The notes beneath the pieces were generated by a model. That model had not been told where the DNA came from. It searched no databases and saw only the letters and a program-made list of their open reading frames with translations. 64,000 nucleotides of DNA, from NCBI GenBank assembly GCA_004431415.1, contig QPMI01000673.1:29510-93509 (forward strand), in the 5' to 3' direction. This stretch comes from Cyanophora paradoxa CCMP329. Its lineage: Eukaryota; Plantae; Glaucophyta. The first letter of the stretch is position 1. The number at the start of each line of letters is the position of its first letter. Below, piece by piece: positions 40,751-64,000 of the stretch. The position numbers were made by a program, and so were the translations under genes.

Positions 40751-40827
40751 CACACATAGGGATACCCCTGATCCAAGCCCTCCGGCCTTCGGCCTACAGG
40801 CTTGGATCAGGGGTATCCCTATGTGTG
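40751..40827. repeat. Perfect 29-bp inverted repeat at the host/virus junction
   Basis: CACACATAGGGATACCCCTGATCCAAGCC (40751-40779) and its exact reverse complement (40799-40827); the 19-nt spacer contains GGCC-TTC-GGCC. Confidence 0.97.
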
Positions 40828-40948
40828 CGCGTTTCAGGTACTAGGGTAGTAAGCATTTATTTCAGGTCTTAGGGTATTAATCATGTCTTTTTGGCACCAG
40901 TATGTTGGCCGCCTCTGGGGTATTAGAAGCTTGGATTCGGCACCAATT

Positions 40949-41058
40949 AGGCAGGAGAGGCAGGAGGGTTATTTGTAAACTTTCCTAAGGAATCCCCTCT
41001 TGTGTGGGATTTTACATATAACCCTCCTGCCTCTCCTGCCTCTCTTGCCTCTCCTGCC
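40949..41058. repeat. 24(+6)-bp inverted repeat with two short internal arms and 10-bp iterons
   Basis: AGGCAGGAGAGGCAGGAGGGTTAT (40949-40972) pairs with 41018-41041; TGTAAA/TTTACA extends the stem; CCTCTCCTG-like unit repeated about 4 times. Confidence 0.92.
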
Positions 41059-41064
41059 CCTCTC

Positions 41065-41463
41065 TTAAACCTCAAATCTCCTCTTCTCATGGTGTAATCT
41101 CTTTTTAATTACTGCCCCAAATCCAACAGCATATTTGTTTATCTCCTCCTCCAGCTCAAAAGCAATTAAACTTGTATTCCTTTCTGCCTGTTTTCCACAG
41201 CTGAATATATCTATTGCCAACATGCCTTGATCACTGTAGCAATGAGCAGAGCAATGGCTTTCATCTAATAATAATACTTGGGCAAATCCAGGGGGTGATT
41301 TGGTGCCATCAAAAATCTCAGCATGTTTGTGGACAACCTGTATTCCATATTTCTTGATGATGTCTTCACTGACATTCATGAGCCATTTAGAGAGCTCCAC
41401 ATGGTCTCTAATTGGTTGGCTGAATTGGAAATCAAGCATCACATGGTAACCTTTGGCAAGCAT
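41065..41463 (-). CDS. speD: S-adenosylmethionine decarboxylase proenzyme (prokaryotic-type, pyruvoyl-dependent)
   Basis: GYHVMLD...PPGFAQVLLLDESHCSAHCY...AIDIFSCG, with the E-SH autocleavage motif. Confidence 0.88.
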   Translation of the reverse strand: MLAKGYHVMLDFQFSQPIRDHVELSKWLMNVSEDIIKKYGIQVVHKHAEIFDGTKSPPGFAQVLLLDESHCSAHCYSDQGMLAIDIFSCGKQAERNTSLIAFELEEEINKYAVGFGAVIKKRLHHEKRRFEV

Positions 41464-41508
41464 TTTGATTACCAATAGAATAGAAAAAACAATAAGATTG
41501 CTGGAGAT

Positions 41509-42353
41509 TTAAGGCAAAGGATCACTTCCTCCAATGGGATTGTATAAATTTGTGGTTAGATATTGACCAAATCTATTTCCTCTGGCAATTTCATCATTCC
41601 TTTCAGCATACATAATCACTGTGTAAGCCCCTTGCTGGGTAGCTCTTATAATATATTGGTCATCTTGTGTGTCAAGAAGTGGCAGTGAATGGAAAGCAAG
41701 TCCGAAATTATCTACTGGGACTACTTGGACAGTAATTCGGGGTCTTGCTCCATCTGTTCTTCTACATAATGCGTAAATATCAGCAGGCAACGTCTCAGTA
41801 TATCTATAGTGATTTCCCAAAGGCTCTATAACATCAATGACAGCAGTCTGAAGGTTGATAATGATTGTGTTGATTTTGATAATGTAAGGCTCATTCATTC
41901 CCGGGACATATGTCCTGATTCTTGTATTCACATCATCTGGATTGGGTTGATCATTTACTAATAAAGGCGCTCCAATAATTCCACCAACCCTTAAACCATC
42001 TCCAATATAGGCACCTCCTGACCTACATTTAATTGCTCCCTTCTTGCTTCGTAGGCAAAATTGGTTACCTTGTTATCATCATTGTAACTATCAGGATCCC
42101 CATGAAATGCGTTGAAATTCGCATTTGTTACAAGAAGTTTAGTAGTTTTAACGACCCCATTATTTTTGTCACATCTCAATTCTCTTAGTCTTAGCATGTG
42201 AGTGTCCCCAAAAGTATTTAGGGTTGGGGCTATCTCTGTGGATTCGAGACCATCAATATTATCAATAATAGCATGCTGTAAGACGTGGTTAGCTGGAGCA
42301 GCTAATGATAGTTGCGCTGTTAAAATGCGCTCTGGTGGTGCTGGTGCTGCCAT
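41509..42353 (-). CDS. Viral hypothetical protein, paralog A (one frameshift near 42000)
   Basis: ORFs 41991-42353 and 41509-41931 join; shares LRxDKNxGVVKTTxLLVTNANF and C-terminal GxY..RNDE with the next gene. Confidence 0.65.
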
Positions 42354-42372
42354 TTAATATACTGAAACATAA

Positions 42373-43217
42373 TTACGGAATGGGATCATTTGGGAATGGT
42401 TCATTATAGAAATTCGATACTTGCGAATCAGGATTTATACAGTTGGCAACAGCCCATGCTGCTTCATCATTACGATATCCAAAAATTAAAATATCATAAC
42501 CCCTACCTCTGATGCCCAAAAATCGAAACTGTTTGGTTGTGTAGCAGGATTTCTTGTGATCCATCCACGCCCACCATGGCCTACTGCTTGAACAAAGAAA
42601 GTATAACCTTCTAATCCTCCATTCTGAGAGCGACATATAGAATACATTGCCTTTGGTAGAAGCTGATTAGCCAATTTCCATGGTCCGGCAATACCTTGGG
42701 GTTGAGTGGCATTTTGCGTATTTACATTAGCTCTAATGATACCAAAAGCATACGGGGAATCCCCGCATGGAAGAAACATGCGAATTCTTTGGGGATTATC
42801 AGCATGTTCAGGTAAAGTGTCCGGAAAATCATTAAAGGCAGCAGAAGAGCCAAGCATTCCCGATACTCTACAGCCACCACCAATTATTGCTCCTCCTGAT
42901 CTTATAACAGCAGCAGCCCTTGTATTGTCAAATTCAAATGCTTTGATATCTACACCATACGCATCAGGTTGTCCATTTGCTGATTGAAAATTCGCATTTG
43001 TTACAAGTAGTTGAGTTGTTTTCACCACTCCCGAATTTTTATCAGCTCTCAGTTCTTTTACACGAATCATACTATTCTTGTCAAAAGCATTACCTGAATT
43101 TGCCCGTTCTGTTGATTCCATTCCACGAACTTCATCAGACACTTCATGTTGTCTAAAATGAATTGCTGGACTCCCCAATGCGTAAACTGGTAATTGGACT
43201 CGATTATATTCGCCCAT
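42373..43217 (-). CDS. Viral hypothetical protein, paralog B (one frameshift near 42500)
   Basis: ORF 42486-43217 plus the tail of 42373-42636; same shared motifs and PxxDPxP terminus. Confidence 0.65.
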
Positions 43218-43256
43218 TACTTCTTTTATTAAGAAGGATAGAAAAATAAAGCTTCA

Positions 43257-46200
43257 TCACGGAATTCCATATGCTGTCCAGTGAATTGTGAAGGTATATG
43301 TCGTATTTGCTGTAGCAGTCGCATCAGTTAGCAAGGTAACATGAACTGTGGACGAGGTAGAACTTGAATTCGATAATCCAAACTTATAGCCAAGCGCTTG
43401 GGTTGTCACAGGGGTTCCTTCCATTACTAAACTAATGACAGGTGGTTTCGTGTTGAATGCTGGGTTCCAATTTAAAATATAAGTGGCTTCTCCACGGCTA
43501 TTGGCGTTGAGGGGTGCTATACTCATCTGGAAAGTCCCAGATAGAAATCTTTGCCTGATTTCATTCCATGTCAGGATTTTACTTAGACTATTTGTAGTTC
43601 CAGTGGCCACCTCATAGAAAGACCTTGCGTAAACATTGGTGTTCACACTGAGCTTGTCTACCAAAAGATTTGCTGAGAGCTGAGTGTATGTTTCGGGATA
43701 AGTGTATGGAAAGTCAAGCCCAAATTTGAGCTTAAAGTAATATCTCATGAAACTCTTTTCAGTTGGAGATAAAGCCCGATTAAAAATTACAACTTCGGCT
43801 ATCTCTCCTACATAGGAAGTGAATGAGAGTTCCTTTATTTTTATGGTTGGCGTGTTTGACCACAGGAAGCTTCCAGTAATTGAGGGAGATACATCTGTGC
43901 CATTCAACCCATAGTTAGTGTTGTAGGGGTTAATTGAAAGTCGAACAACCCCCAAGAATTCAAGAAGCTTGTTGTTGAGACTTGTGTTAATGTGGAAGTG
44001 ATAATACCAAGGGAATTTCCATTAACTGCTCCCAGTGTGATATATCTCCCGTATGTAGGGTCACTTGTGTCATCATTGGTAACTACAAAATGTGATTGGT
44101 TACCTGTGGCAGTGTGCTTTCTCACTGAAAATACAGTCATGCCACTGGCAAAAATGTTTGATAATGCTGTGGTGTACTGATGCCGATATCCAGAAGAACT
44201 ACTTGTGCTGACCATGTATTTATTTCCATTCAATGCTGTCCCACTGCTTATTGAGTTCTTGGATAAAGTGAACCCAGGGCTCATGTTTGGTAAGGCAAGT
44301 GGGAGCCCTTCTGCTCTGTTGACCATTGTTTCTAACAACGAGCCATTGACATCAGTTGAATTTGGGTACCAGTGGAACACACAATTGGATGTGAAAAGTG
44401 GATTAGTATATGAAAGGAGCTGGTCAATTGGTGGCGATGTAGAAATTGGATAGAACTTGATGGACTGGTCACCATTTATGATTGAAGGAGTGTAAAGGTT
44501 GCTTGAAACTACAAGGTTTGATGTAAGATAGCTGCTGAGCCAGTCCCTTGTAACATTTGAAGTAACAAGTTGTGGATTAATTTTTTCAGCTATCAATGCT
44601 TGAACGACATTTGAAGTGGTGTAAGGTTGAAGCCAGTTTTGAACAGTGTTTGATGTGGGGATATTTGGCAAGGCTACATTGCTATTCACAGTCAGCTTAT
44701 TAAGTATAAGATTGGGGGTGGACACCTGTAGGAACTCATTTGAGGAGTAGGCTGGGCTGATTTGGGGAATTGGGTTGCTCAGACCATACTTTTGTGATAG
44801 ATAGTAGCGGATAAAGCCCTTCTCATCAGCTGATAGAGCCCGATTGTAAATGATTATTTCTGCCATTTGTCCTTGGAAGCTTTCTATCCAATCTTTTGGA
44901 TTGTGAGATTTGCCACTTCACTTAAATTGTAGTTGCCAGATAATGTGGGGGATAAATCAACACTATTGATGCCTACTGTGGTTACGGTTGAAGTGACATG
45001 ATAGTCAAACAAAGTCCAATTGTTGTAAAAGCTCGTGGCTGTGGATGCTGTGGAAGTTGCTTGATACACTCCATTTGTTTGATAACTCGTTATTCCAATA
45101 GATGTTTCTCCTGTGGTTCCGAATCTTATATTTCTACTTGATGTAGGGTCACTGTAAATGTTTAGATGAGCTGAAGGACTGGCAGAGGTTGAATAGTTCC
45201 TTCTCACAGAGAACATTGTCATCCCATTGCTGAATGGGTTTGCTATGTAGGGACTTGGTTGCGCCAAATAGGTTGTTACCCCTGTAACCCCAAATAGTTT
45301 ATTCCCATTGATTAAAGAGGCACTCAGCACGAAGGCCCCAGTTGACACTTTTAGCCAAGAAGGCAAAGCATTGGGTTGCCCAGATGCCCTATTGGTAAGT
45401 TCTGGTATTGCTGTGCCTGATGGCTCATTTAAAGGATACCAGTGGAATACACAGTTTGGTGTAGACAGTGGATTTGTGTATGCTGAAAGGCGTTCCAGGG
45501 GAGGTATCAAGTTTTGGATTAGAACCAAGTCTATGGATTGGCTACCACTTCTTATGTTATTTGTGTAAAGGCTGCCCGAAACAGAAAGATTGGATGTGAT
45601 AGTCCCTCCTGATTTGGGCAAATAGTCACTCAACCAGCTCTGAACTATATTTGAGGATGTGAGTGGAGATATTTGGGTATTGACTGTAGCCGTATCAGCC
45701 TTGGGAGCTAACCAGCCCTGAACTGTGTTGGAAGAGGTCAACAGGGCTATTTGGGAGTTAACAAAGGCAGTCTCAGCCTTTGGGGCTAACCAAGCTTGAA
45801 CTGTGTTGGAGGATGTCAGCAGGGCTATTTGGGAATTTACAGCTGCTGTATCAGCCTTGGGGATTAACCAGCCCTGAACTGTGTTGGAAGACGTCAGCAG
45901 GGCTATTTGGGAATTTACGGTTTCTGTATCAGCCTTGGGAACTAACCACTCTTGAACTATATTGGAAGCAGTCAGTGGGGCTATCCACTCTTGAACTACA
46001 TTGGAAGCAGTCAATGGGGCTATCCATTCCTGAACTACATTGGAAGCAGTCAGTGGAGCTACCCATTCGTGAACTACATTGGAAGCAGTCAATGGGGCTA
46101 TCCATTCCTGAACTACATTGGAAGCAGTCAGTGGGGCTATCCACTCTTGAACTACATTGGAAGCAGTCAATGGGGCTATCCATTCCTGAACTACATTGGA

Positions 46201-49200
46201 AGCAGTCAGTGGAGCTACCCATTCGTGAACTACATTGGAAGCAGTCAATGGGGCTATCCATTCCTGAACTACATTGGAAGCAGTCAGTGGAGCTACCCAT
46301 TCGTGAACTACATTGGAAGTGGTTAAAGGTTCTATATTGGTATTGATACTGTCTATGCTTTCTTGTATCTGTGTAATCTGGGCATTGATGGCAGTTATTT
46401 CTGCCTCTTGAAGGCTTGAACTTGTTTGGAAATCTTTGATAATAAAACCACCTCCTGGTGCTGGTGCTGTATATTGGAGGTTGTTGGCTATAAGACTTCC
46501 TGTAACTCTCAGGCTGTTTGTTTGTAGAAGAAGTTTGTTAGGGTCACTGGAGAAAGGATTGTCTAATGGCTCAGGATAACCGTATTTTTGAAGGAGATAA
46601 CTTCGCACGTTATTTTTGACGATTTCTGTTGTTGGTTTAATAATCACTATTAGCTCTGCTAAATCTTGTTTGGAGGTTGAAGAGCCAATACGACTTTCAG
46701 TAACAAGGTTATTGGGGAACATGTTTGTAACATTTGCAACACTTCTATTGCTACCATTGATCCCAAATGTAACAGTGGAAGGAGAGACTGTTACTTCGTA
46801 GAGTGTCCATGTCGTCATTTCGGAGTATGTAATTTCTGCTTTTGCGTTACTTGGTGAAGTGCTTTCACCTAATCCTGCTGCTCCAACCCCATTAGAAACC
46901 TGAATATAACAAGTCGCACCATTGTTCCATTTATTGATGCTCCAATTTGTGGTTCCATATCTCAAAGATAAAACGTTCTCTACATTTGGAGGTGCTGTAT
47001 CTGTGAATTTCGCGACGAAAAACACAGTTAAATGTTGCTGTGAAGTTTGGCTCATGAAAAGTTCACACTCAGCCCCCCACGTATTATAGGCTGAAAAGTT
47101 GAAGTTAATGGTAGGATACGAATTAAAATAAGGTTTGTTGTTAGGACCTCCATTATTCTTAATTTGCGTCGAGTTCCCAGCAACATTACCAAACCCAAGA
47201 AGAAAATTCGGTGTCTCAGGGTTATTATCAAACCAAACGTCTCCTGCTCCGTTTCCAAGTCCACTCACTATCGTTCCATCTTTCATGTTGTCCCTTGCTC
47301 TGACCCAAACGAAAACATTAAGAACTGAAAGGACATTAAACGTCGAGACATCCAAATAATCCAATTTGAAAGTGTTCTCATATATTTTGAGTTTGCTGTC
47401 AGTGTTTCCTTGATTGCTCACGTTAAGATTTCCTGTGATTGTTCCACCTGTTAATGGTAAGTAGTTCTCTAACAACGCTTCTGAATCTGCTATCCAACCC
47501 TCCACAACATTAGAAGTGGTGTATTTATTTAACCATCCGTCTACTACATTCGAGGTTGTGAATTCTGTAAGTAATGCTGCTACACCATTGGTGGTTGCTA
47601 AGTTCATCCCTGTTACTTGTAGTTCCTGAGTCTTGATGAGTAGTTTATTATCATCTCTTGGTATTGGGTTTGAAGGGTCTTCCACAAATCCGTAGAATTG
47701 ATGAAGATACCATCGTAAATTATATAGCTCAGCAGCTGTTAAGGCTCTTGTGAAACAATAGAATTCGCACAGGTCAAATTTTGAGTATTGACTTCCCAAA
47801 TATACATACTTTACATCATTTCGGGGCAGATGAGAACCATTTGTAATCGAAAAGGTCTGTCTCTCTTTCGCATTAACACCCACTTTTACGAATGTGCTTG
47901 TGATTGTGATGTCATAGATTGTCCAAGAATCTACTTCGTCAATTGTGAGTGGAACCCTGAAAGTAGATTGGTCTAATTTGCTGATGTTCAAAACGAAACC
48001 ATCACCCCATTGACCTTTGGAAATACTCCAAATTTGCCCATTACTACCAAGTGTAGAAGACCCATCAAACTGTAAAATAGGTTCAAGCGGTTCAGCGCTT
48101 CTTAACTTAATCACAAATGCGACAGTTATCCCTCCACTGAAATCGATGGTTTCATAGCCTGCTGAATTTGTAGAAGTGAAGGAATAACGGAAAGTAGAGA
48201 AGCTATTTGTGTCTGCTACATCATAGAAGGGTTTGTTATTAGGACCTCCTGAACTCTTGAATACTACACTTCCTGACTGTATCAGTTTTTGAATAACATT
48301 AGCATTTGCTTTATTAACAAGCTCATAGACCAGTACATTATTTTCCCAAGCATCATCCAAACTCGCATTAAATCTTAGAAGGCAATGAGACAAACCCCAA
48401 CATCGAAATTTAAGAAGTTTAAAGGTGCTCTTGAAATCTCATTGTTCCCTATAACAATCTTATCCTTTACCTCCAATTCTCTATTGACTGTAAGATCACC
48501 TGTAATGGTGCCACCTGTCAGTGGTAAATATTTAGCGAGTTCAGCATCAAGCTCAGTCTCTGTAACATAGGGTATTAATGCTGCTGCCAGTGTTGTGGCA
48601 TATTCAGTTTCTGTTACATAATCATTGAGTATAGTTGAGAGTTCTGTTCCATCTATGTAGTTCTTATTTTCTAAATAATCCTCTGTGACAATTCTCGATA
48701 TAGTTTCGTTGTGTATGTTTTGGCTGATGCCCTTTGATTGATCTCTAAGACACCCTCCCCACTCCACCATTATAATTTGTTTTAATCCAAGCTACCTCAC
48801 ACTGTTTATAATCATCTCGATCTCCAATTAAATCATCAGGTAAGAGACGTTCTCGACTAAATATTAACTTTGGTCTTGATCCATCAAAAGCGCTAACATC
48901 AGTTACGTTAATTTGAAGGGTGGCATCTTTGTCTACAAAATTAATTGGATCAGCTGGAAGAGATGGTATAGGTGGAAATGTTGCTGTCATTGGGATGTCA
49001 TCTGGGTAGTAACTTGTTAGATAGATACCGGGTTTGGTGTCTTTTATTTCAACACCTCCACCAGCTGCCACTAAATTAACTCTTGTTGGGGGTCTGATAT
49101 ACAATTCGCCTTCCATTGTGGTTCCAGCATCTAATCCCCTACGATTCACATAGTAGTCATTTAATTGTAATCTTTCTTCAATCTCAATATTTTGATAGAG

Positions 49201-50631
49201 ACTTACACCAAGTGGAAAGTCTGTCAACATATTGCCTGCTGATGCGAATGTGGGTTGTTCATCTATTTCGTCCCAATTATGCCTATGATCTTCTGGTGGG
49301 AACTGTTCTGGTATTCCGTCAATGTCACCCCAATCATGTCTGTGATCCTCTGGTGGAAATCTGTCAGGTTTATTATCAATCTCTTCCCAATCATGTCTGT
49401 GATCTTCTGGTGGAAATCTATCAGGTTTATTTTCGATTTCGTCCCAATCATGACCATGGGGATCTGGTGGATATGTTTCAGGTTTGTTTCGAATATCTTC
49501 CCAATTAATGATAAAATCGAACAGATCAGGCGCAAAACCATCAGGTAAAAGCTGCTCATGAAAAGGCTCGTAGCGATCATAAGTCACAAGATTTGGGTCA
49601 AAGCCATCTGGTAAGACATTATCGTCTTCAAATCTCCTATCTTCAAGAGGTATTACATTTACATCTGGTGATAAAAGCTCCTCAGCTGGTTGTTTGTAAT
49701 CTGTAAATACTGGTTTGTTTCTGACTTTTTCCCAGCTAACTATGTGCTGCCCAAAGGCTACATTTTCCTCTGCTGTGTATTCCCTCCCTGGTTGCTTCTT
49801 TGGTGTAAGGTCAGGTGGATCCCACGGAAGCGGAAAGGGGACAGGAACAGGACCGTAATGCTCAAAGATTTCCCTTAAAGTTTTCTCACTGACAAGCTTT
49901 TCACCATTGGCATACACATTGCTTCCATGGATATTTCGCCACTGCCTCGTCCTGATTCCAAGGTCTTTGGTGTTTGTGACCAATGGTAAAAGGTGCCTAT
50001 CCATTTCGACAAGATCAGGGTGTAAATGGATTGCCACTGGTTGAGTGGGGCTGCTGTTGATGGTAATTGATGGCTTTTTCTGGTGGACATCATTTGGAGT
50101 AAAAAACCCAAACGGCTCATTCCTCGCAAAGTCATATGTAATATCCTTGGGGTATACATCATTAGTTGAACAGACTTGATTCGTGTTCTGGAAATGGCCC
50201 ACTTGTAATACTTGGGGAACCTCTGTTTTTGTGGTGCTGCCCTCATTATAAATTCTTAAACCCGTGTTCTGTTTGCCCTGCTCATCTTGTACATTGAAAA
50301 TCAAACGGCCACTATCACACCTTGATGGTATGTCTGGATGGGTTCCACTTGGTTTAAGTTTTCTGGGTCTCTTTCTGGTTGCCTTGATCTCTGCTACTTG
50401 GTTGGCTTTCACATTGCCCAAACTAAAAGCTATACTGACATCCTCCTTGTCTGGATCGGTCTGATTTAAGGAAAGGGCATGCTCCCTTGATTGAGTCTTT
50501 GAAGAACCGTCAGAGCTGTGGTCGATTGATATTGAACCTTTAACTTTTATATTATCAAAGTTCACATGCTTTGTGCTGCTGGAATTATCATCTTGAATTG
50601 TTTCCAGATTAGGGGGGTAATTAAAGCTCAT
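43257..50631 (-). CDS. Giant modular fibre/adhesin (~2,450 aa if joined; 4 frame breaks)
   Basis: Abutting ORFs 48745-50631, 48375-48770, 44884-48393, 43904-44866, 43257-43955. Fibre motifs DLGIRTRQWRNI, HxHxW repeats and YLPLTGGTITG; four LamG-like domains ending (A)E..(Y/F)NRALS..E...YL..KYG; C-terminal FNTKPPV..TIHWTAYG tip. Confidence 0.8.
45630..46325 (-). repeat. Coding tandem array: ten 39-bp units (PLTASNVVQEWIA) then four 78-bp units
   Basis: Visible in DNA and in the 44884-48393 translation. Confidence 0.95.
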
Positions 50632-53154: not shown

Positions 53155-53183
53155 TTTAATATATGAATATAGATAAAAGGAGA

Positions 53184-54193
53184 ATGCCCGTGGATTACAT
53201 TGAGGTGAGTTCTTTTAATACAATCTCTGGTGACGGTCCTACTTCAAGCTTTGTAGCTCGACTTCCAAACATATATGAGAATGTGAGGGCTGTCAGGCTG
53301 GTCTCGGCCGAATTTTATAATAGTATCCCTATGGTGAGTGGTGAAACGCAACCAGGGGATATTACAATTGATAATTCATTCAGCATTTTTTGGAGTGAAG
53401 AATTCGATGGTGCTGGCATTGATGGCATTCCAACTACTCGACCAGCGGCCGGCTTTGAACCTTGGAAGCAATTAATCATAAGTCGCAAAAAACCCATTCA
53501 AAGCCACCAGCAATTGGTAAATGTAATTAATGCGAAATTCGATGATAGAGAGCCGGAACCATCTATTCGCTGTAAATGGGATGAGTCACTAAAACGAATT
53601 ATATTCCACTCAGAGAAACCTTTCTATTTAGCCTTCTCTAACGCTGGAAATCCAAACCAGAAAACGATCCAAAAGTTGCTGAGCGCTGCCGATTGCTTGG
53701 TCTTGATCCCGGAAGATATGGAAATTCCCCAATCCAATCACAGGTTTATAATGCTCTTACTGATGGCATCTTTACTGGTGAACGGGTGAATGGTATTATA
53801 TCTTCGTTTGAGCCTGAAAAGACAAGGGACAGTGTTTTATTTGTCAGAGTAAAAGAGTTGGGTGATCTGGTTCAGTGTGGGGATGGTCTCCTGACTGGTT
53901 ACTTCCACAAAATCGTGGTTCCTGACAAGGACTATGGTGAGCATGTGGTTTACAATTCAACAGAATCTCACCCACTTTACAAGTACTATAACAAAAAAAT
54001 GGGTTTGTCTACATTCTCTGTGGATATAGTAAATGCTATAAACGAACCAATCGATTTTGAGGGTCAACCTGTCCACCTCACATTTGAAATTCGATATGGG
54101 GAGGAGCCAGCAGGCGACCCTGTCTATGAATACTTTAAGATGCGGATGTCACAAAGTCATCCAACATATCCAATCATTGCGAGTTTTGGGTAA
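53184..54193 (+). CDS. Minor capsid (penton-like) protein 2 (frameshift near 53690)
   Basis: IEVSS..SSFVARLPNIYENVRAVRLVSAEFYNS; LFVRVKEL; FSVDIVNAINEPIDFEGQPVHLTFEI. Confidence 0.75.
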
Positions 54194-54247: not shown

Positions 54248-55618
54248 ATGGATATTACGTCGACCCTCCAGCGCCTTTCGTTGAAAGAAGCCCTAACAAC
54301 CCCAGAGGAGGCCAAGGCCTTCTTTCTGGATAACTCCCTAATGCTTGGTCTTGAATCCAAGTCTAAGCCCGTTCTTGTTGTTGTGAACCCGAGCAATACT
54401 TTTGAAAATAGTGTTGGAAATCGCATTTCATTCAAACTCCCTCGCTACAATTTCTGTGGCAAACTTGAACTTGCCTTCGACCTTCCAGCTATCACTTTTG
54501 GTGATGCTGATCTTGTTCGAAATGGGTATACTCGCCCAGTTGGTGCTTTGGTTCAGCGACTTGAAATTACCTATGGGTCATACACCTACCATATCCCTTC
54601 TGATTTCCTTGCTCATTTCCCTCTTGTCTATTATAGTGAGGATCAGCTTGCCAAAAAGAAGCGGTCAATGGGCATGCTTCACGGCATCCCCGCCCATGGA
54701 ACCAACCGACTTGGTGGCTCATTCTTTGTTGAAATTCCTGTGCCTTGGCTAAACCACTACCTACCTCTTGGTGCTCTGTCTGGTGAAATGGTAGTAACTG
54801 TTTGGTTCAAGGATGTAGGGAAGGGTTATGTTGAGACTTCTTATGGTGGTCGTACTCTTCCTAAGGCTGGGGACACAGCCATTGATGGGGACAAGGACGA
54901 TGGGCTTGGCGTCGCACCTGCTGAATCTGTGCTGGCACATGTTGGCCAAAACATCACCACTTTCAATCTTGGTGCGCCAAACGTTGAAATTAAAATTACT
55001 TCTCCTCGCCTTTATATGTATGCTGTTAATGTGTCTGATGAGCTTTTCGCTACTGTTATTGAGAAGGTAAAGACAACTGGCATGGCTATCCCTGCTCTGG
55101 ATATTGGATTTGTGGATGTCAGTGATATGAAAGCCAAGGGTGGTGCCCAACCCAATCGAGTTAACCTCTCCCAAATCTCAGGTCTCGTTTATGCTCTGCT
55201 TGTTTCAGTTCGTGATAACGCTACTGTTGACAAAGCTAATGGTTCCCACAGTGTTCTCAAGACCTACTCCAACTCCAAAGATATTACTTTCACTGTGGAA
55301 ATTAATGGTCAACGTCTCTATGCCACTGAGCCTATTCCACTGCTCAAGGGTGCTGAGCTGATTGCTGATGTCTTCAAATGCTCTAATATGGATAAGGTTG
55401 CTGATCGCTATGTTCTTTCGGGTATGAGTTTCTGTCTTGACGGTGAGAAGGCGATTCGCAATATTGCCCAGTCTGGCTATGTTGACCTGACCAATTCTTC
55501 ATCTTCATTCCTCACTCTCTACATGCCCACTGAAAAGGCAATTGATGTCAATGTTCGCGCTCTCATGCACACGTTCCTCATTTTGGACAAGGACGGTTTA
55601 CGAAAAATTAATCTATGA
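54248..55618 (+). CDS. Double jelly-roll major capsid protein (PLV/NCLDV-like)
   Basis: 456 aa; G.RISFKLPR...LELAFDLPAI..GY..PVGALVQRLEITYG and FFVEIPVPW...LPLGALSGEMVVTVWFK match the DJR MCP N-barrel pattern; next to pentons and ATPase. Confidence 0.85.
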   Translation: MDITSTLQRLSLKEALTTPEEAKAFFLDNSLMLGLESKSKPVLVVVNPSNTFENSVGNRISFKLPRYNFCGKLELAFDLPAITFGDADLVRNGYTRPVGALVQRLEITYGSYTYHIPSDFLAHFPLVYYSEDQLAKKKRSMGMLHGIPAHGTNRLGGSFFVEIPVPWLNHYLPLGALSGEMVVTVWFKDVGKGYVETSYGGRTLPKAGDTAIDGDKDDGLGVAPAESVLAHVGQNITTFNLGAPNVEIKITSPRLYMYAVNVSDELFATVIEKVKTTGMAIPALDIGFVDVSDMKAKGGAQPNRVNLSQISGLVYALLVSVRDNATVDKANGSHSVLKTYSNSKDITFTVEINGQRLYATEPIPLLKGAELIADVFKCSNMDKVADRYVLSGMSFCLDGEKAIRNIAQSGYVDLTNSSSSFLTLYMPTEKAIDVNVRALMHTFLILDKDGLRKINL

Positions 55619-55755: not shown

Positions 55756-56697
55756 ATGGTACGAGCTTTGACCCTTCATGAATTCATCGAAAAGAGCAAA
55801 AGAATACATGGAGAGAAGTATGATTACTCAAAAGTAACCTACAAAAACAATTCCACTTATGTAGTTATTCAATGTAAATCTTGCTCCATGGAATTCAAAC
55901 AGCTCCCTGGTGGGCATTTAGCAGGTCGAGGGTGTAGAAAATGCGCTGCTAAACTAACTGGGGCGGCACAAAAACTTTCGACTGAACAGTTTATTGAGAA
56001 ATCAAGAGCTGTTCATGGTGATGTCTTTGATTATACAAAGACTGTCTATGAATCTGGACACAAAAAAGTCACTGTCACTTGTAAGAAATGTGGAGCAGAT
56101 TCTTGTATTTTAGCACAAAATCATCTATTTAAACAAGGGTGTAAGCAATGCTCTTTAGAAGAACGCAAGAGCAAAACTAGAAAAAGCAAAGACGATTTCA
56201 TTAGAAAAGCCATCGAAATCCACGGCGATCGATATGATTATAATGAAGTTGTTTACATTAACAACAAAACAAAAGTAGTAGTTAAATGTAAGCAGTGTAA
56301 CTCCAACTTTGCTCCAGTCCCAACCGATCACTACAAAGGGACAGGTTGTCCTCGATGCCAATTCTCAAGGGGCGAAACAAGAATTGATCAATATTTAAAG
56401 AAGCTTGGGATTTCATTTGAGATTCAAAAGAAATTCGAACGCTGCCGGAATAAGTTTCCCCTCCCTTTCGATTTCTATATTCCAGACATGAATGCTTGTA
56501 TTGAATACCAAGGAGAGCAGCATTATAAAAAGGTTGGACATTGGGGAACTGATGGGTACCTTCAAAAGTATCAGGAAAGGGACGCCATCAAACTTTTATT
56601 CTGTCAAATAAACAACATACATTTGCTTGTTATTCCTTACACAGAGAAAGATATTGAACGGGCTGTAGAAACATTCCTTCAATCTCTTAAAGATTAA
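55756..56697 (+). CDS. Zn-ribbon-repeat (DUF723-like) + PD-(D/E)xK/Vsr-like endonuclease, homing-endonuclease-like
   Basis: Three FIEK...HG..YDY..V.Y......V...C..C...H....GC..C repeats; SRGE..I..YL...FEIQKKF..C....LPFDFYIP....IEYQGEQHY. Confidence 0.85.
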   Translation: MVRALTLHEFIEKSKRIHGEKYDYSKVTYKNNSTYVVIQCKSCSMEFKQLPGGHLAGRGCRKCAAKLTGAAQKLSTEQFIEKSRAVHGDVFDYTKTVYESGHKKVTVTCKKCGADSCILAQNHLFKQGCKQCSLEERKSKTRKSKDDFIRKAIEIHGDRYDYNEVVYINNKTKVVVKCKQCNSNFAPVPTDHYKGTGCPRCQFSRGETRIDQYLKKLGISFEIQKKFERCRNKFPLPFDFYIPDMNACIEYQGEQHYKKVGHWGTDGYLQKYQERDAIKLLFCQINNIHLLVIPYTEKDIERAVETFLQSLKD

Positions 56698-56750: not shown

Positions 56751-57533
56751 ATGGGCGACTTGGACGAATTTGTGGCTGGTGAAATGATAAATCCCCCTTT
56801 CCGCGTTTTGGCAATTGGCAAATCTGCTACTGGTAAATCAGAGGCTGTCAAGTACTGGCTAAAGCAGCTTCATGATGCCAAAAAGATTGATGTCGTTCTT
56901 GTTATCAGTGGAACTGCTTTTAACAACTTTTGGAACAATGTAGCAAGTGTTCAGCTTGGCAAATGGGATGCTCATTACATTGAAAAGGTTTTGGAAGATC
57001 GACAACAGAAAATAGAAAAGGGAGAGCCGATTAATCAACTCTTAGTTGTACTGGACGATCTAATTGATAATGACTTGGTCGATCTCACTCGCGATAAAAT
57101 AATCAACAAATTGTACTCTATGGGCAGACATTTGAAAATATCTATTATCTGTATCACACAAAAGCTAAGGAAAGTCTCATCGACCATTCGCGTCAACTCA
57201 GATTATGCTATGTTCCTAAGCGCTGCCAATAGAAAGGAGCTTGAAGCCATTGAGGAAGAATACAATATAATGCGGGACAAAGATGTTTTCTATAAAATGT
57301 TTGAAGAGTACGTACATTCCTACCAGTTCCTAATTTGGTCATCTGCCGATTATTCTGTAAAATATTTCGTAGATAAAGCGGATTTGGTCAAAGATTTCCC
57401 ATTTCCACGGTTCCACAGGAAACCAAAAAAGAAAGAAGACGAGCTTAAACCACCAGAGAAAGAAGAGGGGCGCAAAGAAGTGAAAAGCCAAGTTCATAGT
57501 AATAAGTTAATGCGATATAAACGCGGTCTATAA
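56751..57533 (+). CDS. A32-like (FtsK/HerA) genome packaging ATPase
   Basis: Walker A GKSATGKS, Walker B LLVVLDD, MGRHLKISIICITQ, IRVNSDY. Confidence 0.95.
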   Translation: MGDLDEFVAGEMINPPFRVLAIGKSATGKSEAVKYWLKQLHDAKKIDVVLVISGTAFNNFWNNVASVQLGKWDAHYIEKVLEDRQQKIEKGEPINQLLVVLDDLIDNDLVDLTRDKIINKLYSMGRHLKISIICITQKLRKVSSTIRVNSDYAMFLSAANRKELEAIEEEYNIMRDKDVFYKMFEEYVHSYQFLIWSSADYSVKYFVDKADLVKDFPFPRFHRKPKKKEDELKPPEKEEGRKEVKSQVHSNKLMRYKRGL

Positions 57534-57561
57534 AAATATCTCTCACTTTAATAAAGACACA

Positions 57562-58296
57562 ATGCCCCCCAAACGCAAAATAGGCATCCCTGCTGGGGCT
57601 GTTGGTTATTCAGGTGGTGGTAACAATGGCTCCATTAACACAGACCCGCTTAAATTCAATGGAATGAATGAGGTTAAGCCCTCACAACAGCAAGAGGATC
57701 CCCTTAATGCCGCCTATGAGGAATCCTTTGATGACAAAGCCCCACAGACGTCCACCAGTGATCAGCTCAACATCTCCCCTGAAGCTTCTAAAATGAAGGC
57801 TGTGGGTGAGGGTGCCAGGCGAATTATAGGTGCTGCTGATGATAAAGGTCTTGGGCTCCAAGATCTATCACTCACTCGCAAAGGTGAGGGTCTCAGTAAA
57901 GAATCCGACAAGGTTATCCAGTCTATGGCGGGTGAAGTCACATACAAGACTGCTCCCACCCAGAATATTCATAGAGTTCCCAAGGCTCAATGGGACGAAA
58001 TGACTGCCAAGCTTAAAGATCTGGAAGCCAAATCAAGTGCCTTAGAGCAGTATGTAACTGAGAAGAGAGAGAGATCCAAACTCAAGGAAATGCTTAGAAA
58101 GGAGGTGTTCAAAATGGGGATCACTGGGATTCCAGATAAACAGTTTATTGCCAAGAAAGAGAACCAAATTGATGAGCAAGCTGTTGATGAAATGAAAACA
58201 AAGACCCAAAAGGGGACTATTGAGCCAGGTGCTACAAAGGCTGAGGTGGACAAAGGTGTAGCTCCCACAGTGTATAAACGACGGGTTTGGCTTTGA
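57562..58296 (+). CDS. Viral hypothetical protein (basic N-terminus MPPKRK, coiled-coil segment)
   Basis: 244-aa ORF with AT-rich leader, in line with the ATPase. Confidence 0.7.
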   Translation: MPPKRKIGIPAGAVGYSGGGNNGSINTDPLKFNGMNEVKPSQQQEDPLNAAYEESFDDKAPQTSTSDQLNISPEASKMKAVGEGARRIIGAADDKGLGLQDLSLTRKGEGLSKESDKVIQSMAGEVTYKTAPTQNIHRVPKAQWDEMTAKLKDLEAKSSALEQYVTEKRERSKLKEMLRKEVFKMGITGIPDKQFIAKKENQIDEQAVDEMKTKTQKGTIEPGATKAEVDKGVAPTVYKRRVWL

Positions 58297-58321
58297 AAGC
58301 GTTTTTCTATAGATATTATAA

Positions 58322-58552
58322 ATGGAGGATACCATTAGTTTGGTGGAGTTCACTGTCGATAGCCCTGTGACAGAGAGTTATATTAAAAACGCTTTAGCAA
58401 ACCAAAAAAGATACAGGGAAGACCCGGAATATAGAGAGTTTAAGAAACAGCAAGCCTTGGCATCATATTATCGCCGAAAGGCACAAAAAGAAGCAGTGAG
58501 GCCCATAGGGAGGCCAATTAAATATTATCAGACTACTGAGAGCAGCAACTGA
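58322..58552 (+). CDS. Small basic putative DNA-binding protein (AT-hook-like RPIGRPIKY)
   Basis: 76 aa, K/R/Y-rich helix then GRP motif. Confidence 0.55.
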   Translation: MEDTISLVEFTVDSPVTESYIKNALANQKRYREDPEYREFKKQQALASYYRRKAQKEAVRPIGRPIKYYQTTESSN

Positions 58553-58577
58553 GTTATTTTGTCTCGTTAATAGTAAA

Positions 58578-58853
58578 ATGTGGCAATGGCTCCAGCAATT
58601 GCTGGATATGTTTCATATACATGTGACCAGCAATTATAAGTGTAGCTGTTGTGATACTACTATTGACGTCAGCATTGGATCTTCCTCCCCAAGTGGATCC
58701 AGGAGTGGGTCTCCCTATGATGTGGTGATGAGGACAGGCTCAACTGAGGGGCAAAGGGTAAGCTTGGAGAGTATTGAAGAGGTGACAGGGGAGCAATTTG
58801 CTCAGGCTGTAAACAGCGCTTGGAATGAGTACCAAGGAAACCGTCTACATTGA
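58578..58853 (+). CDS. Small viral hypothetical protein (amphipathic N-terminus, CSCC)
   Basis: 91-aa ORF with the shared AT-rich leader. Confidence 0.5.
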   Translation: MWQWLQQLLDMFHIHVTSNYKCSCCDTTIDVSIGSSSPSGSRSGSPYDVVMRTGSTEGQRVSLESIEEVTGEQFAQAVNSAWNEYQGNRLH

Positions 58854-58858
58854 ACGCA

Positions 58859-59095
58859 TTATCTGCCATCAGGGAAGGGGGTAATCTCGTTTCCAAGCAT
58901 TAGAAGGTCGTTTGATATTTTTTGTAAGGCTGCTTTAATGTGTGGAGACAAAGGAGCTATGCGGTGTCCAAGGTTGTACAGTTCTATAGAGACGCGATGT
59001 ATGGAGTCACTCAATTCAGGGCTTGGAGACGTCAGCGCCAGATGTGAGAGCTCAAAGGATATTTCTACAAGGCGAGTATGGATGGGAGTTGTCAT
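58859..59095 (-). CDS. Small helical hypothetical protein
   Basis: 78-aa ORF convergent with the previous gene; no family recognised. Confidence 0.4.
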   Translation of the reverse strand: MTTPIHTRLVEISFELSHLALTSPSPELSDSIHRVSIELYNLGHRIAPLSPHIKAALQKISNDLLMLGNEITPFPDGR

Positions 59096-59289
59096 AATAA
59101 TCTACTTTTAGGCAGCATAAAAATGCGAAAGGGGCGGCTCTGCGTAGAGCTTGATGAGAGCTTTACAGGGAAAAAAAGAGCGCTCAAAACGGCCAATCTG
59201 GTGAGGAGATATTCGCGTTTGGAGTTCCTTAAGTGGCTCTAATTGAACATTTTAGAAAAGTTCTTATAGAGCTCTATAAGGAAAAAGCC

Positions 59290-59568
59290 GCCTACTGCTG
59301 TACGGTAGGCATGAGGGCTCTACCGGTAGGCGAGTAGGCAGGGCCCTACTGTCCTACCGCCGGCGGCCTGTGCCTACCGGTCTGCTGTAGACACACGGGC
59401 TCGCCTACCACTGCGGTAGGCTGGCTCATATATGTATATGATATATATGAAAAAAAACAAGTTTCGGTAAAAACTACAGCGCCGTGATCGCCATGACGCG
59501 GCGAGTCCGGAAAGCTATGATATATATATATATGTCATGTGACATTATGATATATCATATACATATAT
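59290..59568. repeat. Palindrome cluster: GC-rich CCTAC/GTAGG hairpins plus a 19-bp AT-rich inverted repeat
   Basis: Hairpins/palindromes at 59290-59310, 59320-59329, 59357-59366, 59403-59421; ATATATGTATATGATATAT (59428-59446) is the exact reverse complement of 59550-59568. Confidence 0.9.
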
Positions 59569-59570
59569 CA

Positions 59571-62500
59571 TTATGGTATATACAATCCAAAGAACCATCT
59601 GATATTATAATATGAAGAAGCTCCACCACTGACACTATATGATATTTTGATGGAATCATTAGCTTGAAGGTCAACTATTATTTCCAATCCATTGTTTGCA
59701 TACACAGATGGATAATTATTATTAACTTCAATTCCAGATGAGCTTCCGTTTTTCTGTAAAAATGTTGTTATAATACCTGGTCTTCCAGCCGTATAACAGG
59801 ATCCACTAAATGTGACAAGATAGTTTCCTGTAACAGGGGCAGTAAAAAGCCCTGTCGCAGGATCGAAATGATTTCCTTGGTTCACTATGACTCCTGTTGT
59901 TGGATATATATTTATTGAGGAAATTGTTGCAGTTATTGACCCATTTGGTTGCTGTTTTGTTGCAAAGAAACGAGGATGGCTACTTAATTTGAGATATTTG
60001 CTTGTCGGAAGTGTGAGATGTTGAACAGTTGTGTTATCTGTCTGAATAGTTTTTTGAAGAGAAAGAATGGTATCCCCATTCCTCTTGTAATTCATGACTG
60101 TGTCACTCATGTTGTCAATCTCAGGTGTATTTATTCTTGTTGTAAGTGTGAGAGTTCCATACTGAATACTCCCTGAAAGCCCACCATTAAAGGTCATCAA
60201 TCCTGCAAATGAACATGTCCACTCACAGTCAATTGATTTGCTGTCAGAGTTCCTGCTACATTTGCTCCATCACCAATGTAGGCTCCTCCACTTTTCACCA
60301 CAAGAGCAGAATTATTGCTTGTATTACCAAAAGTAACTATCTGTGCTGTGGTGAATCCACCCACATTATCATATATTGCTGAATTGGGGACTACCTGACC
60401 TGCTTGAACTTGGTTTTTATTCGAGATTATAATGCCTGTGGTTCTAATCTTGCCTCCATTTCGATCACATCGAATTTCTTTGACCCTCAGTATACTGTTC
60501 TCTGTGAAAGAGGTATTACTTGTAGTTTCAGTGCAAATAAAACCGGGTGTGGAGTCGACTACTTCATGAGAGGTGCTGTGGAGTGATTTGGCTGCAAGTT
60601 CATAGTTTGGAATCTCTAAAAGGAGGTCATCTTTATAATTACGAAATAGTTAAATTGCGACAGCAATGTAATGAATTGTAACTGGAAATCCTGGTCTGTC
60701 AAAAGAACTTAATGGAACTATGTCAAGCTCACAAGTGAAATAGCTACTGTAAACTTGTTTAAGCCTAACATACATTCGATAGTAGTAGGCTGTCTCATTG
60801 TGTTGTATACCAGTTGTTACAATAGGAGGGTTAGCAAGCTGCTGTTGAAATTAATAGTGAGGTTAAACCTATGGTCAGGATTTGCCCAAAGATAAGGAGT
60901 AGTGTAAACATACGTTCCTGCTTGGATTTTCCCATTAAAATATGCATTGAGTTGACTGGAAAGATCTGCTCTGTAATACATCGACTGATGGTCGCATTAT
61001 TTGAGGGGTTCATAGCATAGAAATTTCTTGCATAGGCATTTCCACGAACAAGTAAGGTTTTATCAAAGTAATTCTGCGAATTGTGGAAGAACCATGTTTC
61101 TTCAAACATAGGTCCTGCTGGTTCTACAATCTGACCTGATCCTACATACATTGTGTTGTTGGCTCTGATTGTGGTGGCTGTGAAAGGATCAAGAGTTGGT
61201 CTATTGGTCAAATCATTGTAGTTTCCTGAGAAAATTGCAGGTTTGTTATAGATATCTGTATTCCAATCATGAGTGTGTGCAAAATCTGTAATCTCTGCCT
61301 TTGTGTGGGTGTGACCAACATATGCAACATTTCCAAGATCTGTAATCTCTGCCTTGGTATGGGTGTGACCCACATATGCAACATTTCCGAGATCTAATAT
61401 CTCTGATTTAACATGAGTGTGAGCGAAATTTGTGATATCTGCTCTTGTGTGGAAGTGTGCAAAATCTGTAATTTGTGATTTGGTGTGAGTGTGTGCAAAA
61501 TCTGTGATTTCTGCCTTTGTGTGGGTGTGTGATCTATTATTTAGATCAAGGAAACTACCCGAAAATGCAACAGGATGCAGATTTGCAGCAGTAGGTTTAT
61601 TTATGAGATCATTATAATCTCCTGTGAAAGAGATGGTCTTTAGTTCACCCCTTCCTACATAATCAGAAGGGAGATCAATCTTAATGGGCATAATAGCTGG
61701 ATCATCAGGTATCTCATACTCACCTCCTGGATGAACCACAGGAAAGGTTTGATTGCTTTCAGTATGGACAAAGAAGTTACATGCTGTTACTGTTCCATCA
61801 ATAGTCCCACCTGTGAGAGGGAGTAATTGCCTGTAACACCAATACCTATACCTGCAATGATTGTATTTAGTTCTGTTTCATCTATGTAGTTCTGAGCTTG
61901 AAGGTAATCCTCTGTGACTACTCTCGAAATGCTCTCATTGTGTATGTTTTTTGCAGCCATTCTTTGATTGGCTTCCAGAACCCCACCATAATCTGTTTTA
62001 ATCCATGCAAGCTCTGCCCTTCCATAATTATCATTTGCAGTTCCCACTATGGGAATGTAGGAATACTTATCTCGACTGAAAACTATCATTGGTCTTGAGC
62101 CATCTAAGCTGCTTACATCTGCTACATGAACCTGTATAGCAGAGTTTGTAATTTTGGTAGGTTGCTGGGTCTGTTGGGACTCTGAATGTATCTGTGGGAA
62201 TGTCAGCCTCCATGTAGCTGACACAAAGATATTTGGTATGGTTGCTCCTGGTGGTGGTGGGTTTCAAAAGAGCCTGGTAATGTCCTAATATGAATGGTCC
62301 TCTCATAGCTGAATTTGCAAGTGTCCCATTCACATGACATAGTGTTCATTCAAAAAGATCCTTTCAGGGATATTACAAGTCTGGTAAAGAAGAAACCCAA
62401 GTTATCAGAGGCTCCACCTTTGCAAATTCTGGTTGGTCATTGATCTCATCCCAAATATGTTCATGTTTGCTGGTGGGAACTCAGTTGGAACCCATCAATT

Positions 62501-63882
62501 ACCCCAATCATGCCTGTGATCCTCTGGTGGATACTTTTGAGGTTTGCCTAAGATCTCATCCCAATCATGATTGTGATCCTCTGGGGGATACTTTGCAGGT
62601 TTATTATTAATTTGTTCATAATCAGGAAAGAACTCCCAGATCTCAGGTCGAAATCCATCTGGTAATAATTCCTCAGGGTTCATAAGGTTGCTCATAATCA
62701 ACACTGGTGGATCATGCCCATCTGGCAAATACTCCTCATCAGGTTCATAGTTCTGCTCATACTCAAACTCTTGTGGATCTAAGCCATCTGGTAGTATCTC
62801 CTCCTCATTGGATAACTGATCATATTCATATTCTTGTGGGTCAAAACCATCTGGTAAATATTCTTCCTCATCTGGAACGAATTGATATTCATCAAGCTCT
62901 AATATATCGATTTCAGGAGGTAAATACTGCTCATCTATTGCTTTTTGGTTCAATTATAGGTTTATTGCGAACTTGCTCCCAACTAACAATGTGCTGCCCA
63001 AAGGCTACATCTTCAGTTGCTGTGTATTCTCTTCCAGGTTGCTTCTTTGGTGTTAAATCGGGTGGTCCATTGGGAAATGGAATAGGGAATGGGACAGTAG
63101 GTCCATTGGGACCATAATGCTCAATGATTTTCTTTAGGGTTTTCTCACTTACAAGCTTCTCTCCATTTGCATACACATTGCTGCCATGGATATTTCGCCA
63201 TTGCCTGGTTCGAATTCAAGGTCTTTCACATTGCTATACAAAGGCAAAAGGTGCCTATCCATTTCGACTAAATCAGGGTGTAAATGGATTGCTACTGGTT
63301 GACTGGGGCTACTGTTGATTGTAATTGATGGCTTTTTTTGATGGACATCTTTTGAGTAAAGAACCCAAAGGCTCATTTCTTGCAAAGTCATATGTAATAT
63401 CTTGGGGTAGACATCATTTGTGTAGGACCTGATTTGTATTGGCAATGGGACCCACTTGCAATACTTGGGGACCTCAGCTTTTGCAGTGCTGCCCTCATTG
63501 TAAATTCGTAAAGCTGTGTTCTGTTTGCCCTGCTCATCTTGAACATTGAAAATCAATCGACCACTATCGAACCTGGAAGGTATATCTGGGTGAGTGCCAC
63601 TGGTTTTTAGTTTCCTAGGTCTCCTTCTTGTTGCTTGATCTCTGCCACTTGGTTTGCTTTCACATTACCCAAAACTAAAAGCAACACTGACCTCCTCTTT
63701 ATCTGGATCGGTTTGATTCACAGATAAAGCATGCTCCCTTGATTGAGTCTTGATGAATTATCAGAGCTGTGGTCAATCGAAACTGAACCCTTTACTTTAA
63801 TATTATCAAAGTTCACATGCTTGGTGCTGCTTGCATTATCATCTTGAATGGTTTCTAGATTGGGTGGGTAATTGAAGCTCAT
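59571..63882 (-). CDS. Second fibre gene (~1,430 aa if joined; many frameshifts) with HTH-His repeats and C-terminal C1q domain
   Basis: N-terminal part homologous to 48600-50631; HTHTKAEITD repeats (about 61270-61530); NQGNHFDPATGLFTAPVTGNYLVTF...VDLQANDSI...FFGLYI (C1q). Confidence 0.78.
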
Positions 63883-63925
63883 GCTTTTACTATATGGATT
63901 TAATAAAATTCTTGATAAGTAAAAG

Positions 63926-64000
63926 ATGCCTCTCAAGGTCGTTTTAAGTCTTTCTGGCGGGGGTGCAAGGGGCATTATCATAACCAGGCTGCTAAAGAAA
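63926..64000 (+). CDS. 5' end of second patatin-like gene (runs off window)
   Basis: MPLKVVLSLSGGGARGIIITRLLKE, identical in protein to the start at 50675. Confidence 0.9.
   Translation, partial: MPLKVVLSLSGGGARGIIITRLLKK

What the first reader, a model, noticed from the sequence alone, without database searches (positions are those of the whole stretch)
40751..64000. Endogenous Polinton-like/NCLDV-related virus locus in a probable glaucophyte genome
Seen: abrupt switch to AT-rich intronless DNA with DJR MCP, two pentons, A32 ATPase, fibres, lipase and SpeD. Established: MCP + penton + A32 ATPase is the morphogenetic module of PLVs, virophages and NCLDVs; absence of an adenain-type protease fits PLVs better than virophages or Mavericks. 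Inference: the host is a glaucophyte, a lineage whose viruses are poorly known, and this gene set may define a new group.
Basis: partly seen in the sequence, partly recalled or inferred. Interest (0 to 1): 0.88.

Follow-up and report, generated by a model that had tools for sequence, protein, structure and literature searches.

The report
Integrated small DNA viruses in Cyanophora
A small DNA virus (capsid, packaging motor, likely fibres) sits inside a metal-transporter gene of the alga Cyanophora, likely as a recent insertion, with a second related virus behind it; this virus family is already counted in published tables, so the find is real but mostly known.

Summary
Confirmed as an endogenous Polinton-like virus (PLV), but not a new discovery. 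GC falls from 0.73 to 0.41 at 40,752. The 456-aa protein folds best to double-jelly-roll capsids (PBCV-1, Z 16.1, low-confidence model); A32 ATPase, patatin, discoidin and SpeD pass Pfam cut-offs. The two pentons stay unverified. The host is Cyanophora paradoxa by protein identity. Its closest capsid relative (58%) is listed as a confirmed capsid in Bellas 2023 (366 capsid hits in this species), and Bulzu 2025 tabulates 156 glaucophyte PLVs: rve integrase 85, lipase 89, SpeD 66, protease 0. Added here: the left end is a perfect 28-bp hairpin shared by sibling copies; it interrupts a ZIP transporter gene, probably in an intron, while an identical unbroken copy of that gene exists, so the insertion is likely young; a second, diverged virus (dS 0.93, dN/dS 0.06) starts near 59.3 kb; the frameshifts are likely assembly errors. 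No integrase, polymerase or protease lies in the window. The junction was not bridged by a contig (repeat-masked). The lineage has no group name in the papers read, and its class is open.

The parts
39246..40689 (+). Host ZIP (ZupT-type) metal transporter gene, 5' exons; last exons missing from the window
   Evidence: Spliced exons on RNA contigs of X15 and X16; PF02535 homologues P0008/P0009 100% identical
40690..40751 (+). Host intron cut by the insertion; a branch-point-like word lies at 40,747-40,751 directly before the virus (inferred)
   Evidence: 9 of 9 other introns of this gene have such a word 11-39 nt before the 3' end, 40,690-40,743 has none (pattern chosen after looking)
40752..40826 (.). 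Left terminus of element 1: perfect 28-bp stem with an inner hairpin
   Evidence: (z -9.85, 0 of 200 shuffles); contigs of two DNA runs begin at 40,752
40949..41041 (.). Second, subterminal hairpin (31-nt arms, 97%) just downstream of SpeD; possible transcript end signal (inferred)
   Evidence: Rfam gives only sub-threshold miRNA-shape matches
41065..41463 (-). S-adenosylmethionine decarboxylase (SpeD)
   Evidence: PF02675 45.6 bits; TIGR03330 50.1 bits, below its cut-off
41509..43217 (-). Small ORFs of unknown function, two sharing an internal repeat also found in element 2; frames broken in the window
   Evidence: no Pfam or PHROG hit
43257..48791 (-). Large fibre-like gene(s) with 13 copies of a 39-nt repeat and a weak LamG signal; frames broken in the window
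   Evidence: Laminin_G_3 E 0.034, below cut-off
48745..50631 (-). 628-aa protein with phage-tail-like repeats (fibre base or adaptor, inferred)
   Evidence: PHROG tail families E 2e-10 to 6e-4
50675..52230 (+). Patatin phospholipase followed by an F5/8 (discoidin) domain in an overlapping frame; likely one fused gene
   Evidence: same fusion reported for glaucophyte PLVs
52220..53154 (-). Penton candidate 1, split in two frames; identity rests on recalled motifs only
   Evidence: no database hit
53163..54190 (+). Penton candidate 2, split in two frames; identity rests on recalled motifs only
   Evidence: no database hit
54248..55618 (+). [quoted passage not shown]
55756..56697 (+). Zinc-finger / homing-endonuclease-like gene, likely optional among sibling copies
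   Evidence: phrog_559 HNH endonuclease E 5e-74; one 1,153-nt contig without differences at far lower depth than its neighbours
56751..57533 (+). A32-like genome packaging ATPase
   Evidence: PF04665 49.2 bits; 2 homologues, 78% and 45%
57562..59101 (.). Four small ORFs of unknown function (244, 76, 91 aa on +, 80 aa on -)
59286..59568 (.). Non-coding branched GC-rich palindrome plus AT-rich hairpin; likely left end of element 2 (inferred)
   Evidence: (z -6.59 over 59,100-59,600); no sequence match to the 40,752 end
59571..64000 (-). Element 2, left arm: C1q gene, PTR-repeat fibre with an H-lectin piece, homologue of the 628-aa gene, start of a patatin gene (+); runs off the window

Best explanation
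The region is an integrated Polinton-like virus of the Cyanophora paradoxa family, with capsid, packaging ATPase and a hairpin end, likely inserted recently into one copy of a host ZIP gene and likely interrupted by a second, diverged virus of the same family. Shown: capsid fold, ATPase, lipase, discoidin, SpeD, hairpin end at 40,752, an unbroken second copy of the host gene, two diverged elements. Inferred from known PLV biology: the ATPase fills an icosahedral capsid with a linear genome of about 20 kb, fibres on pentons bind surface glycans, the patatin-discoidin protein helps membrane entry, SpeD feeds polyamine synthesis for DNA packing. Inferred from the family census: integration by an rve integrase (85 of 156 elements, no tyrosine recombinase), encoded beyond the window or supplied in trans. 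Least certain: the terminal hairpin primes replication after excision, with a primase-helicase rather than a protein-primed polymerase (about 45%); whether a helper giant virus is needed is unknown.
For: Fold and family hits. P0001 is the same protein that Bellas 2023 Table S2 lists with HHpred 98.47% to an iridovirus capsid. Contigs of DNA runs X1 and X7 begin at 40,752 at depth 1,047 and 2,122, against 91 and 196 for the endonuclease contig: the GC switch coincides with a shared element end (depth is no copy count). P0008 has the same exons and an intact C-terminus homologous to Cyanoptyche, P0009 reads into the hairpin; RNA contigs of 1,380 and 1,147 nt run on past the last exon in the window. 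All 7 unpaired single-letter contig differences listed inside element 1 lie where two same-strand frames overlap, 6 of 7 in runs of one letter (6 rows of that table were not shown), as Bellas 2023 reports for assembly artefacts. Elements 1 and 2: 291 codons, dS 0.93, dN/dS 0.06. Nested PLVs and terminal palindromes tied to rve and non-pPolB genes are reported in Halocafeteria.
Against: No contig bridges the host-virus junction: the tool masked 40,620-40,746 as repeat. No integrase, polymerase or helicase in 117 six-frame pieces, no inverted copy of the left end and no target-site duplicate in the window. The capsid model is weak (pLDDT 50) and the Atlas recognition value was under its threshold. 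Contigs at the frameshifts sum several copies, so this copy could truly be broken. The 59.1-59.6 kb joint was not covered by any read check. Pentons unverified.
Confidence: 0.85

Rival explanations
1. The virus DNA is real but the layout is an assembly chimera: multi-copy viral sequence was mis-joined to the host gene at 40,752, or two sibling viruses were mis-joined near 59.3 kb.
For: Junction not bridged; many one-letter errors show poor polishing; Bellas 2023 warns that such regions assemble badly; element 2 lacks the 40,752-type end.
Against: The join falls on the first base of the shared element end as defined by two short-read runs, which a chance mis-join would rarely hit; 59,286-59,568 has its own palindrome-plus-hairpin layout mirroring the left end of element 1.
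Confidence: 0.07
2. A member of the NCLDV-like small viruses (Mriyavirus-, Zora- or Zephyr-related) or the edge of a giant endogenous virus, rather than an Aquintovirus-type PLV. The Zora/Zephyr-like form is a placement within the best explanation; the giant-virus form replaces it.
For: Top fold matches are NCLDV capsids; nearest Atlas clusters carry Capsid_N in 12-18% of members and are labelled Nucleocytoviricota; rve-encoding 20-30 kb relatives of Mriyaviruses exist.
Against: The fold libraries returned no PLV-labelled capsid to compare with, and identities are 9-17%; no HUH, VLTF2/3 or polymerase in the window; in the published census 107 ATPases fit a PLV profile and 1 an NCLDV profile; a second left arm after 18.5 kb fits small genomes.
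Confidence: 0.05
3. Old, decayed relics: the frameshifts are real and the elements are dead fossils.
For: At least seven frame breaks in element 1 and ten short gaps in one gene of element 2.
Against: Short-read contigs carry one more letter at these places in nearly all of the depth; GC is not ameliorated; perfect terminal stem; host gene copy still identical to its unbroken twin; dN/dS 0.06.
Confidence: 0.03

Closest known systems
Endogenous PLVs of Cyanophora paradoxa (Bellas et al. 2023, PMC10120064, Tables S2 and S4; Bulzu et al. 2025, PMC12220804, Table S6 and fibre section)
   Same: Capsid 58-59% identical to P0001, which Table S2 lists; lipase, SpeD, discoidin-patatin, A32 ATPase, no protease; PTR-PTR followed by H_lectin, which Bulzu report once, in C. 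paradoxa, occurs in element 2.
   Different: Nothing shown to differ. Whether this very locus is among their elements was not checked. Neither main text mentions a hairpin; the gene interruption and nesting are not in the passages read.
Palindrome-ended PLV subtype 4 and virophages of Halocafeteria seosinensis (preprint 10.64898/2026.07.28.741278)
   Same: Palindrome at the very end of an integrated element; nested elements; hairpin-priming model proposed there.
   Different: Unrelated host (stramenopile); 52-nt palindrome in the example given against a 75-nt branched hairpin here; here the replication gene and the far end are outside the window.
NCLDV-like PLVs: Zora (VC102), VC218, Zephyr, Alpensee groups (preprint 10.64898/2026.06.19.733378)
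   Same: Small genome, capsid with NCLDV-like fold, rve common in Zora and VC218, lipase in some Zephyr members.
   Different: No HUH or VLTF3 hit here; Mriya48 was not tested; glaucophytes are not named in that main text; no phylogeny could be run.
Polintons/Mavericks and virophages
   Same: DJR capsid, packaging ATPase, integration in host chromosomes.
   Different: Both carry a vUlp1 protease; none here or in 156 family members.

Membership tests
Polinton-like viruses (broad sense) | [quoted passage not shown] | tested here: met
   (Z 16.1, rmsd 7.0, 240 aligned; model pLDDT 50), published HHpred of P0001
Polinton-like viruses (broad sense) | A32-like packaging ATPase | tested here: met
   PF04665 49.2 bits, cut-off 22.8
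Polinton-like viruses (broad sense) | [quoted passage not shown] | tested here: inconclusive
Polinton-like viruses (broad sense) | 14-40 kb element with GC contrast and terminal inverted repeats | tested here: inconclusive
   GC contrast and left end met; no inverted copy within the window; far end outside or displaced
Polinton-like viruses (broad sense) | Integrase (rve or tyrosine recombinase) and a replication gene, both variable in the group | tested here: inconclusive
   0 of 117 six-frame pieces hit one; the region runs off the window; family census rve 85, pPolB 49, D5-type 38-40, PIF1-type 34 of 156
Polintons/Mavericks (Polintoviricetes, strict) | vUlp1 cysteine protease with pPolB and rve | tested here: not met
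   None in the 18.5 kb holding the whole capsid module; 0 of 156 in the family; definition
Virophages (Maveriviricetes) | vUlp1 protease and virophage-type capsid | tested here: not met
   No protease; virophage capsid profile 0 of 156; mavirus capsid scores Z 11.3 against 16.1 for PBCV-1
Mriyaviricetes | 35-45 kb genome, HUH endonuclease in all members, VLTF2/VLTF3, no integrase | tested here: inconclusive
   No such Pfam hit in the window, but the element is incomplete; definition (abstract)
Nucleocytoviricota giant endogenous element | DNA polymerase B and other core genes over more than 100 kb | tested here: inconclusive
   None in 23 kb; a second small-virus left arm follows at 59.6 kb; DNA beyond 64,000 not available
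Any named PLV class | Placement in MCP and ATPase phylogeny | not testable with these tools
   No reference PLV set on hand; only 5 MCP relatives among 1.84 billion representatives

The most novel reading that the evidence does not exclude
The Cyanophora elements are an unnamed, glaucophyte-restricted lineage of small NCLDV-like viruses with hairpin-primed ends that still move in laboratory cultures, land inside genes, and can trap host transcripts at a splice acceptor in the terminal hairpin. C. paradoxa would then be a cultured model in which the hairpin-priming hypothesis for PLVs, and a native glaucophyte virus, can be tested directly.
Probability: 0.25. Interest if true: 0.7.

Novelty: new member of a known kind. 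Interest (0 to 1): 0.4.

Why it matters
Glaucophytes are an early branch of the plastid-bearing eukaryotes, and my searches found no paper describing their viruses as a group (library limits apply). The family has been counted but only mentioned in passing. A young, apparently one-copy insertion with a perfect hairpin end gives a concrete locus to test how such viruses integrate and replicate, and whether they are still active. The capsid has almost no relatives outside this alga (best environmental hits 22-24% identity), so the lineage may help place small viruses between PLVs and giant viruses. By itself the locus is one of several hundred already detected.

Tried and rejected
No whole genome is held, so nothing beyond 64,000 could be read. 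Scans for relatives found none: viral contigs with MCP, ATPase, environmental MCP, penton and the hairpin arm, metagenome contigs, phages. The first fold was unusable. The Atlas gave no answer for the penton. No RNA holder was listed for the searched stretch, and RNA-type contigs of X15 and X16 did not cover 41.5-59.4 kb; this is no evidence on expression. The host exon joined to the hairpin loop in X15 is not in the window. No tRNA lies in the element; Rfam matches were all under threshold. No viral sequence was found in the host part 1-40,750. No earlier scan notes. My first reading that the insertion lies in an exon was dropped. Reading element 2 as a local duplication was dropped. Paper searches for PLV plus SpeD (0 papers) and for PLV splice trapping (nothing relevant among 15 listed of 172) led nowhere.
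Full report
Observation. GC is 0.726 up to 40,751 and 0.414 from 40,752 to 59,100. The low-GC part carries long intron-free frames. Pfam cut-offs are passed by SpeD (41,065-41,463), patatin (from 50,675), an F5/8 discoidin domain (51,865-52,230), the A32 ATPase (56,751-57,533), and C1q and PTR fibre domains (59,571-61,691). An endonuclease-like gene lies between capsid and ATPase. The 456-aa protein has no Pfam, PHROG or NCBIfam hit. A model from a 6-row alignment (pLDDT 50) matches double-jelly-roll capsids best: PBCV-1 E 2.4e-10, Z 16.1 with the first 11 of 50 rows viral capsid or scaffold proteins and the best unrelated row at 7.0. Its homologue P0001 scores 0.98 to viral clusters that carry Capsid_N in 12-18% of members, with a recognition value below the tool's threshold. 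The two penton candidates flank each other head to head before the capsid gene; they resemble each other weakly (23 and 16 of 2000 shuffles reach the score) and match penton motifs that I recall, but no tool confirmed them.

Host. A flanking exon is 100% identical to two EukProt proteins of Cyanophora paradoxa and 83% to a Cyanoptyche protein. P0009 matches the window letter for letter across the junction; it may share the window's source, so it is not independent support for the junction.

The end and the insertion site. 40,752-40,826 folds as a perfect 28-bp stem with an inner hairpin. In two short-read DNA runs, contigs begin at 40,752 at about ten times the depth of the endonuclease contig: sibling copies share this end, and it coincides with the GC switch. 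The tool masked the host side as repeat, so no contig bridges the junction. The virus interrupts a ZIP transporter gene. P0008 has the same exons and the C-terminal helices that the window lacks, and spliced RNA contigs continue past the last exon seen here, so an unbroken allele or very recent duplicate exists. The insertion is probably intronic: 9 of 9 other introns have a branch-point-like word near their 3' end, the stretch 40,690-40,743 has none, and such a word sits directly before the virus (approximate intron ends, pattern chosen after looking; 10 of 17 crudely found host introns have it). A 6-bp target duplication would restore that word at the far end, so the gene might survive with a giant intron; this is untested.

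Two elements. 59,571-64,000 repeats the left arm of element 1 in the same orientation, 83% identical over 1,056 nt, with other fibre heads. Over 291 codons dS is 0.93 and dN/dS 0.06, so these are two viruses that diverged under selection, not a local duplication. Between them, 59,286-59,568 holds a branched palindrome and a second hairpin, the same order as at the left end of element 1 but in unrelated sequence. I read it as the left end of element 2, nested in element 1 before its replication genes. No read check covered this joint.

Intact or decayed. All 7 unpaired single-letter differences that short-read contigs show in element 1 lie where two same-strand frames overlap, 6 of them in runs of one letter (six rows were not shown). 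Single-base gaps in element 2 also fall mostly in such runs. Bellas 2023 found such breaks to be assembly artefacts in other protists. The contigs pool sibling copies, so this is likely, not proven, for this copy.

How it likely works. Capsid, pentons and ATPase would build and fill an icosahedral particle; fibres with lectin-type heads would bind the cell; the patatin-discoidin protein would aid entry, as Bulzu 2025 suggest; SpeD would supply polyamines (inference). None of 117 six-frame pieces of 55 aa or more hits an integrase, polymerase, helicase or protease. In the published census of 156 glaucophyte PLVs, rve integrase is in 85, tyrosine recombinase in 0, pPolB in 49, D5-type primase-helicase in 38-40 and proteases in 0, so rve integration is the best inference. 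A 2026 preprint links terminal palindromes to rve and non-pPolB genes and proposes hairpin priming, untested. I put that at about 45% here; protein priming is the rival.

What is known. Bellas 2023 lists P0001 as a confirmed capsid and counts 366 capsid hits in this species in two clusters of 272 and 94. Bulzu 2025 names the discoidin-patatin genes of glaucophyte PLVs and one PTR-PTR-H_lectin fibre in C. paradoxa; element 2 shows PTR repeats followed by an H-lectin piece (E 0.004, below cut-off). Starrett 2021 mentions adintovirus-like proteins in this species. So the family and its gene set are on record. It carries no group name in what I read, and its class is open between Aquintovirus-type and NCLDV-like PLVs.

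Papers seen. PMC10120064: parts 2 and 3 of 7 of the text, term search, rows of supplementary file 2 (cut when stored; other data sets not seen). PMC12220804: abstract, sections 7, 9, 10, 13 (part 1), 34, passages, supplement rows and part 1 of the PDF. PMC11161782 and PMC8502044: passages. 10.64898/2026.07.28.741278: passages and section 7. 10.64898/2026.06.19.733378: abstract, sections 6 and 7, term search. 10.1101/2024.02.29.582850: abstract. Supplements of the preprints are closed and may already place the Cyanophora capsids.

Verdict. Real, correctly identified, largely known. Interest 0.4, for the hairpin end, the young gene-interrupting insertion and the unplaced lineage.

Noticed in passing
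window 40,798-40,799; run X15: One RNA-type contig (558 nt, depth 5.4) joins 238 letters of other, host-like coding sequence to the point just at an AG in the loop of the terminal hairpin and continues like a sibling copy: a possible splice acceptor that traps host transcripts at another insertion site. One contig only.
   Followed up: partly
window 39,420-40,743: Most introns of the host ZIP gene begin with GC rather than GT, and open with GCCCC-type runs.
   Followed up: no
window 59,270-59,430: Nine copies of one 5-mer (five forward, four reverse) in 161 bp against about 1.85 per kb in the element; the same 5-mer is in the loop of the 40,752 hairpin. Possible binding sites for a viral initiator.
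   Followed up: partly
window 55,661-56,813: The endonuclease-like gene between capsid and ATPase is covered by one contig at much lower depth than its neighbours, as expected for an optional homing gene.
   Followed up: no
window 43,500-48,700 against 49,400-55,400: Summed contig depth is several times lower over the fibre genes than over the core genes, and element 2 has different fibre heads: fibre modules seem to be swapped among sibling viruses.
   Followed up: partly
P0005, P0007, P0020 (ENA contigs up to 11.9 kb): A small set of environmental capsid relatives at 22-24% identity; their gene neighbourhoods could not be fetched.
   Followed up: partly
window 33,213-33,289 (-): ARAGORN calls a tRNA-Arg in very GC-rich host DNA; may be a chance call.
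   Followed up: no
window 22,001-23,000 and 38,001-39,000: Local GC dips to 0.57 and 0.56 in the host part; no similarity to the virus.
   Followed up: no
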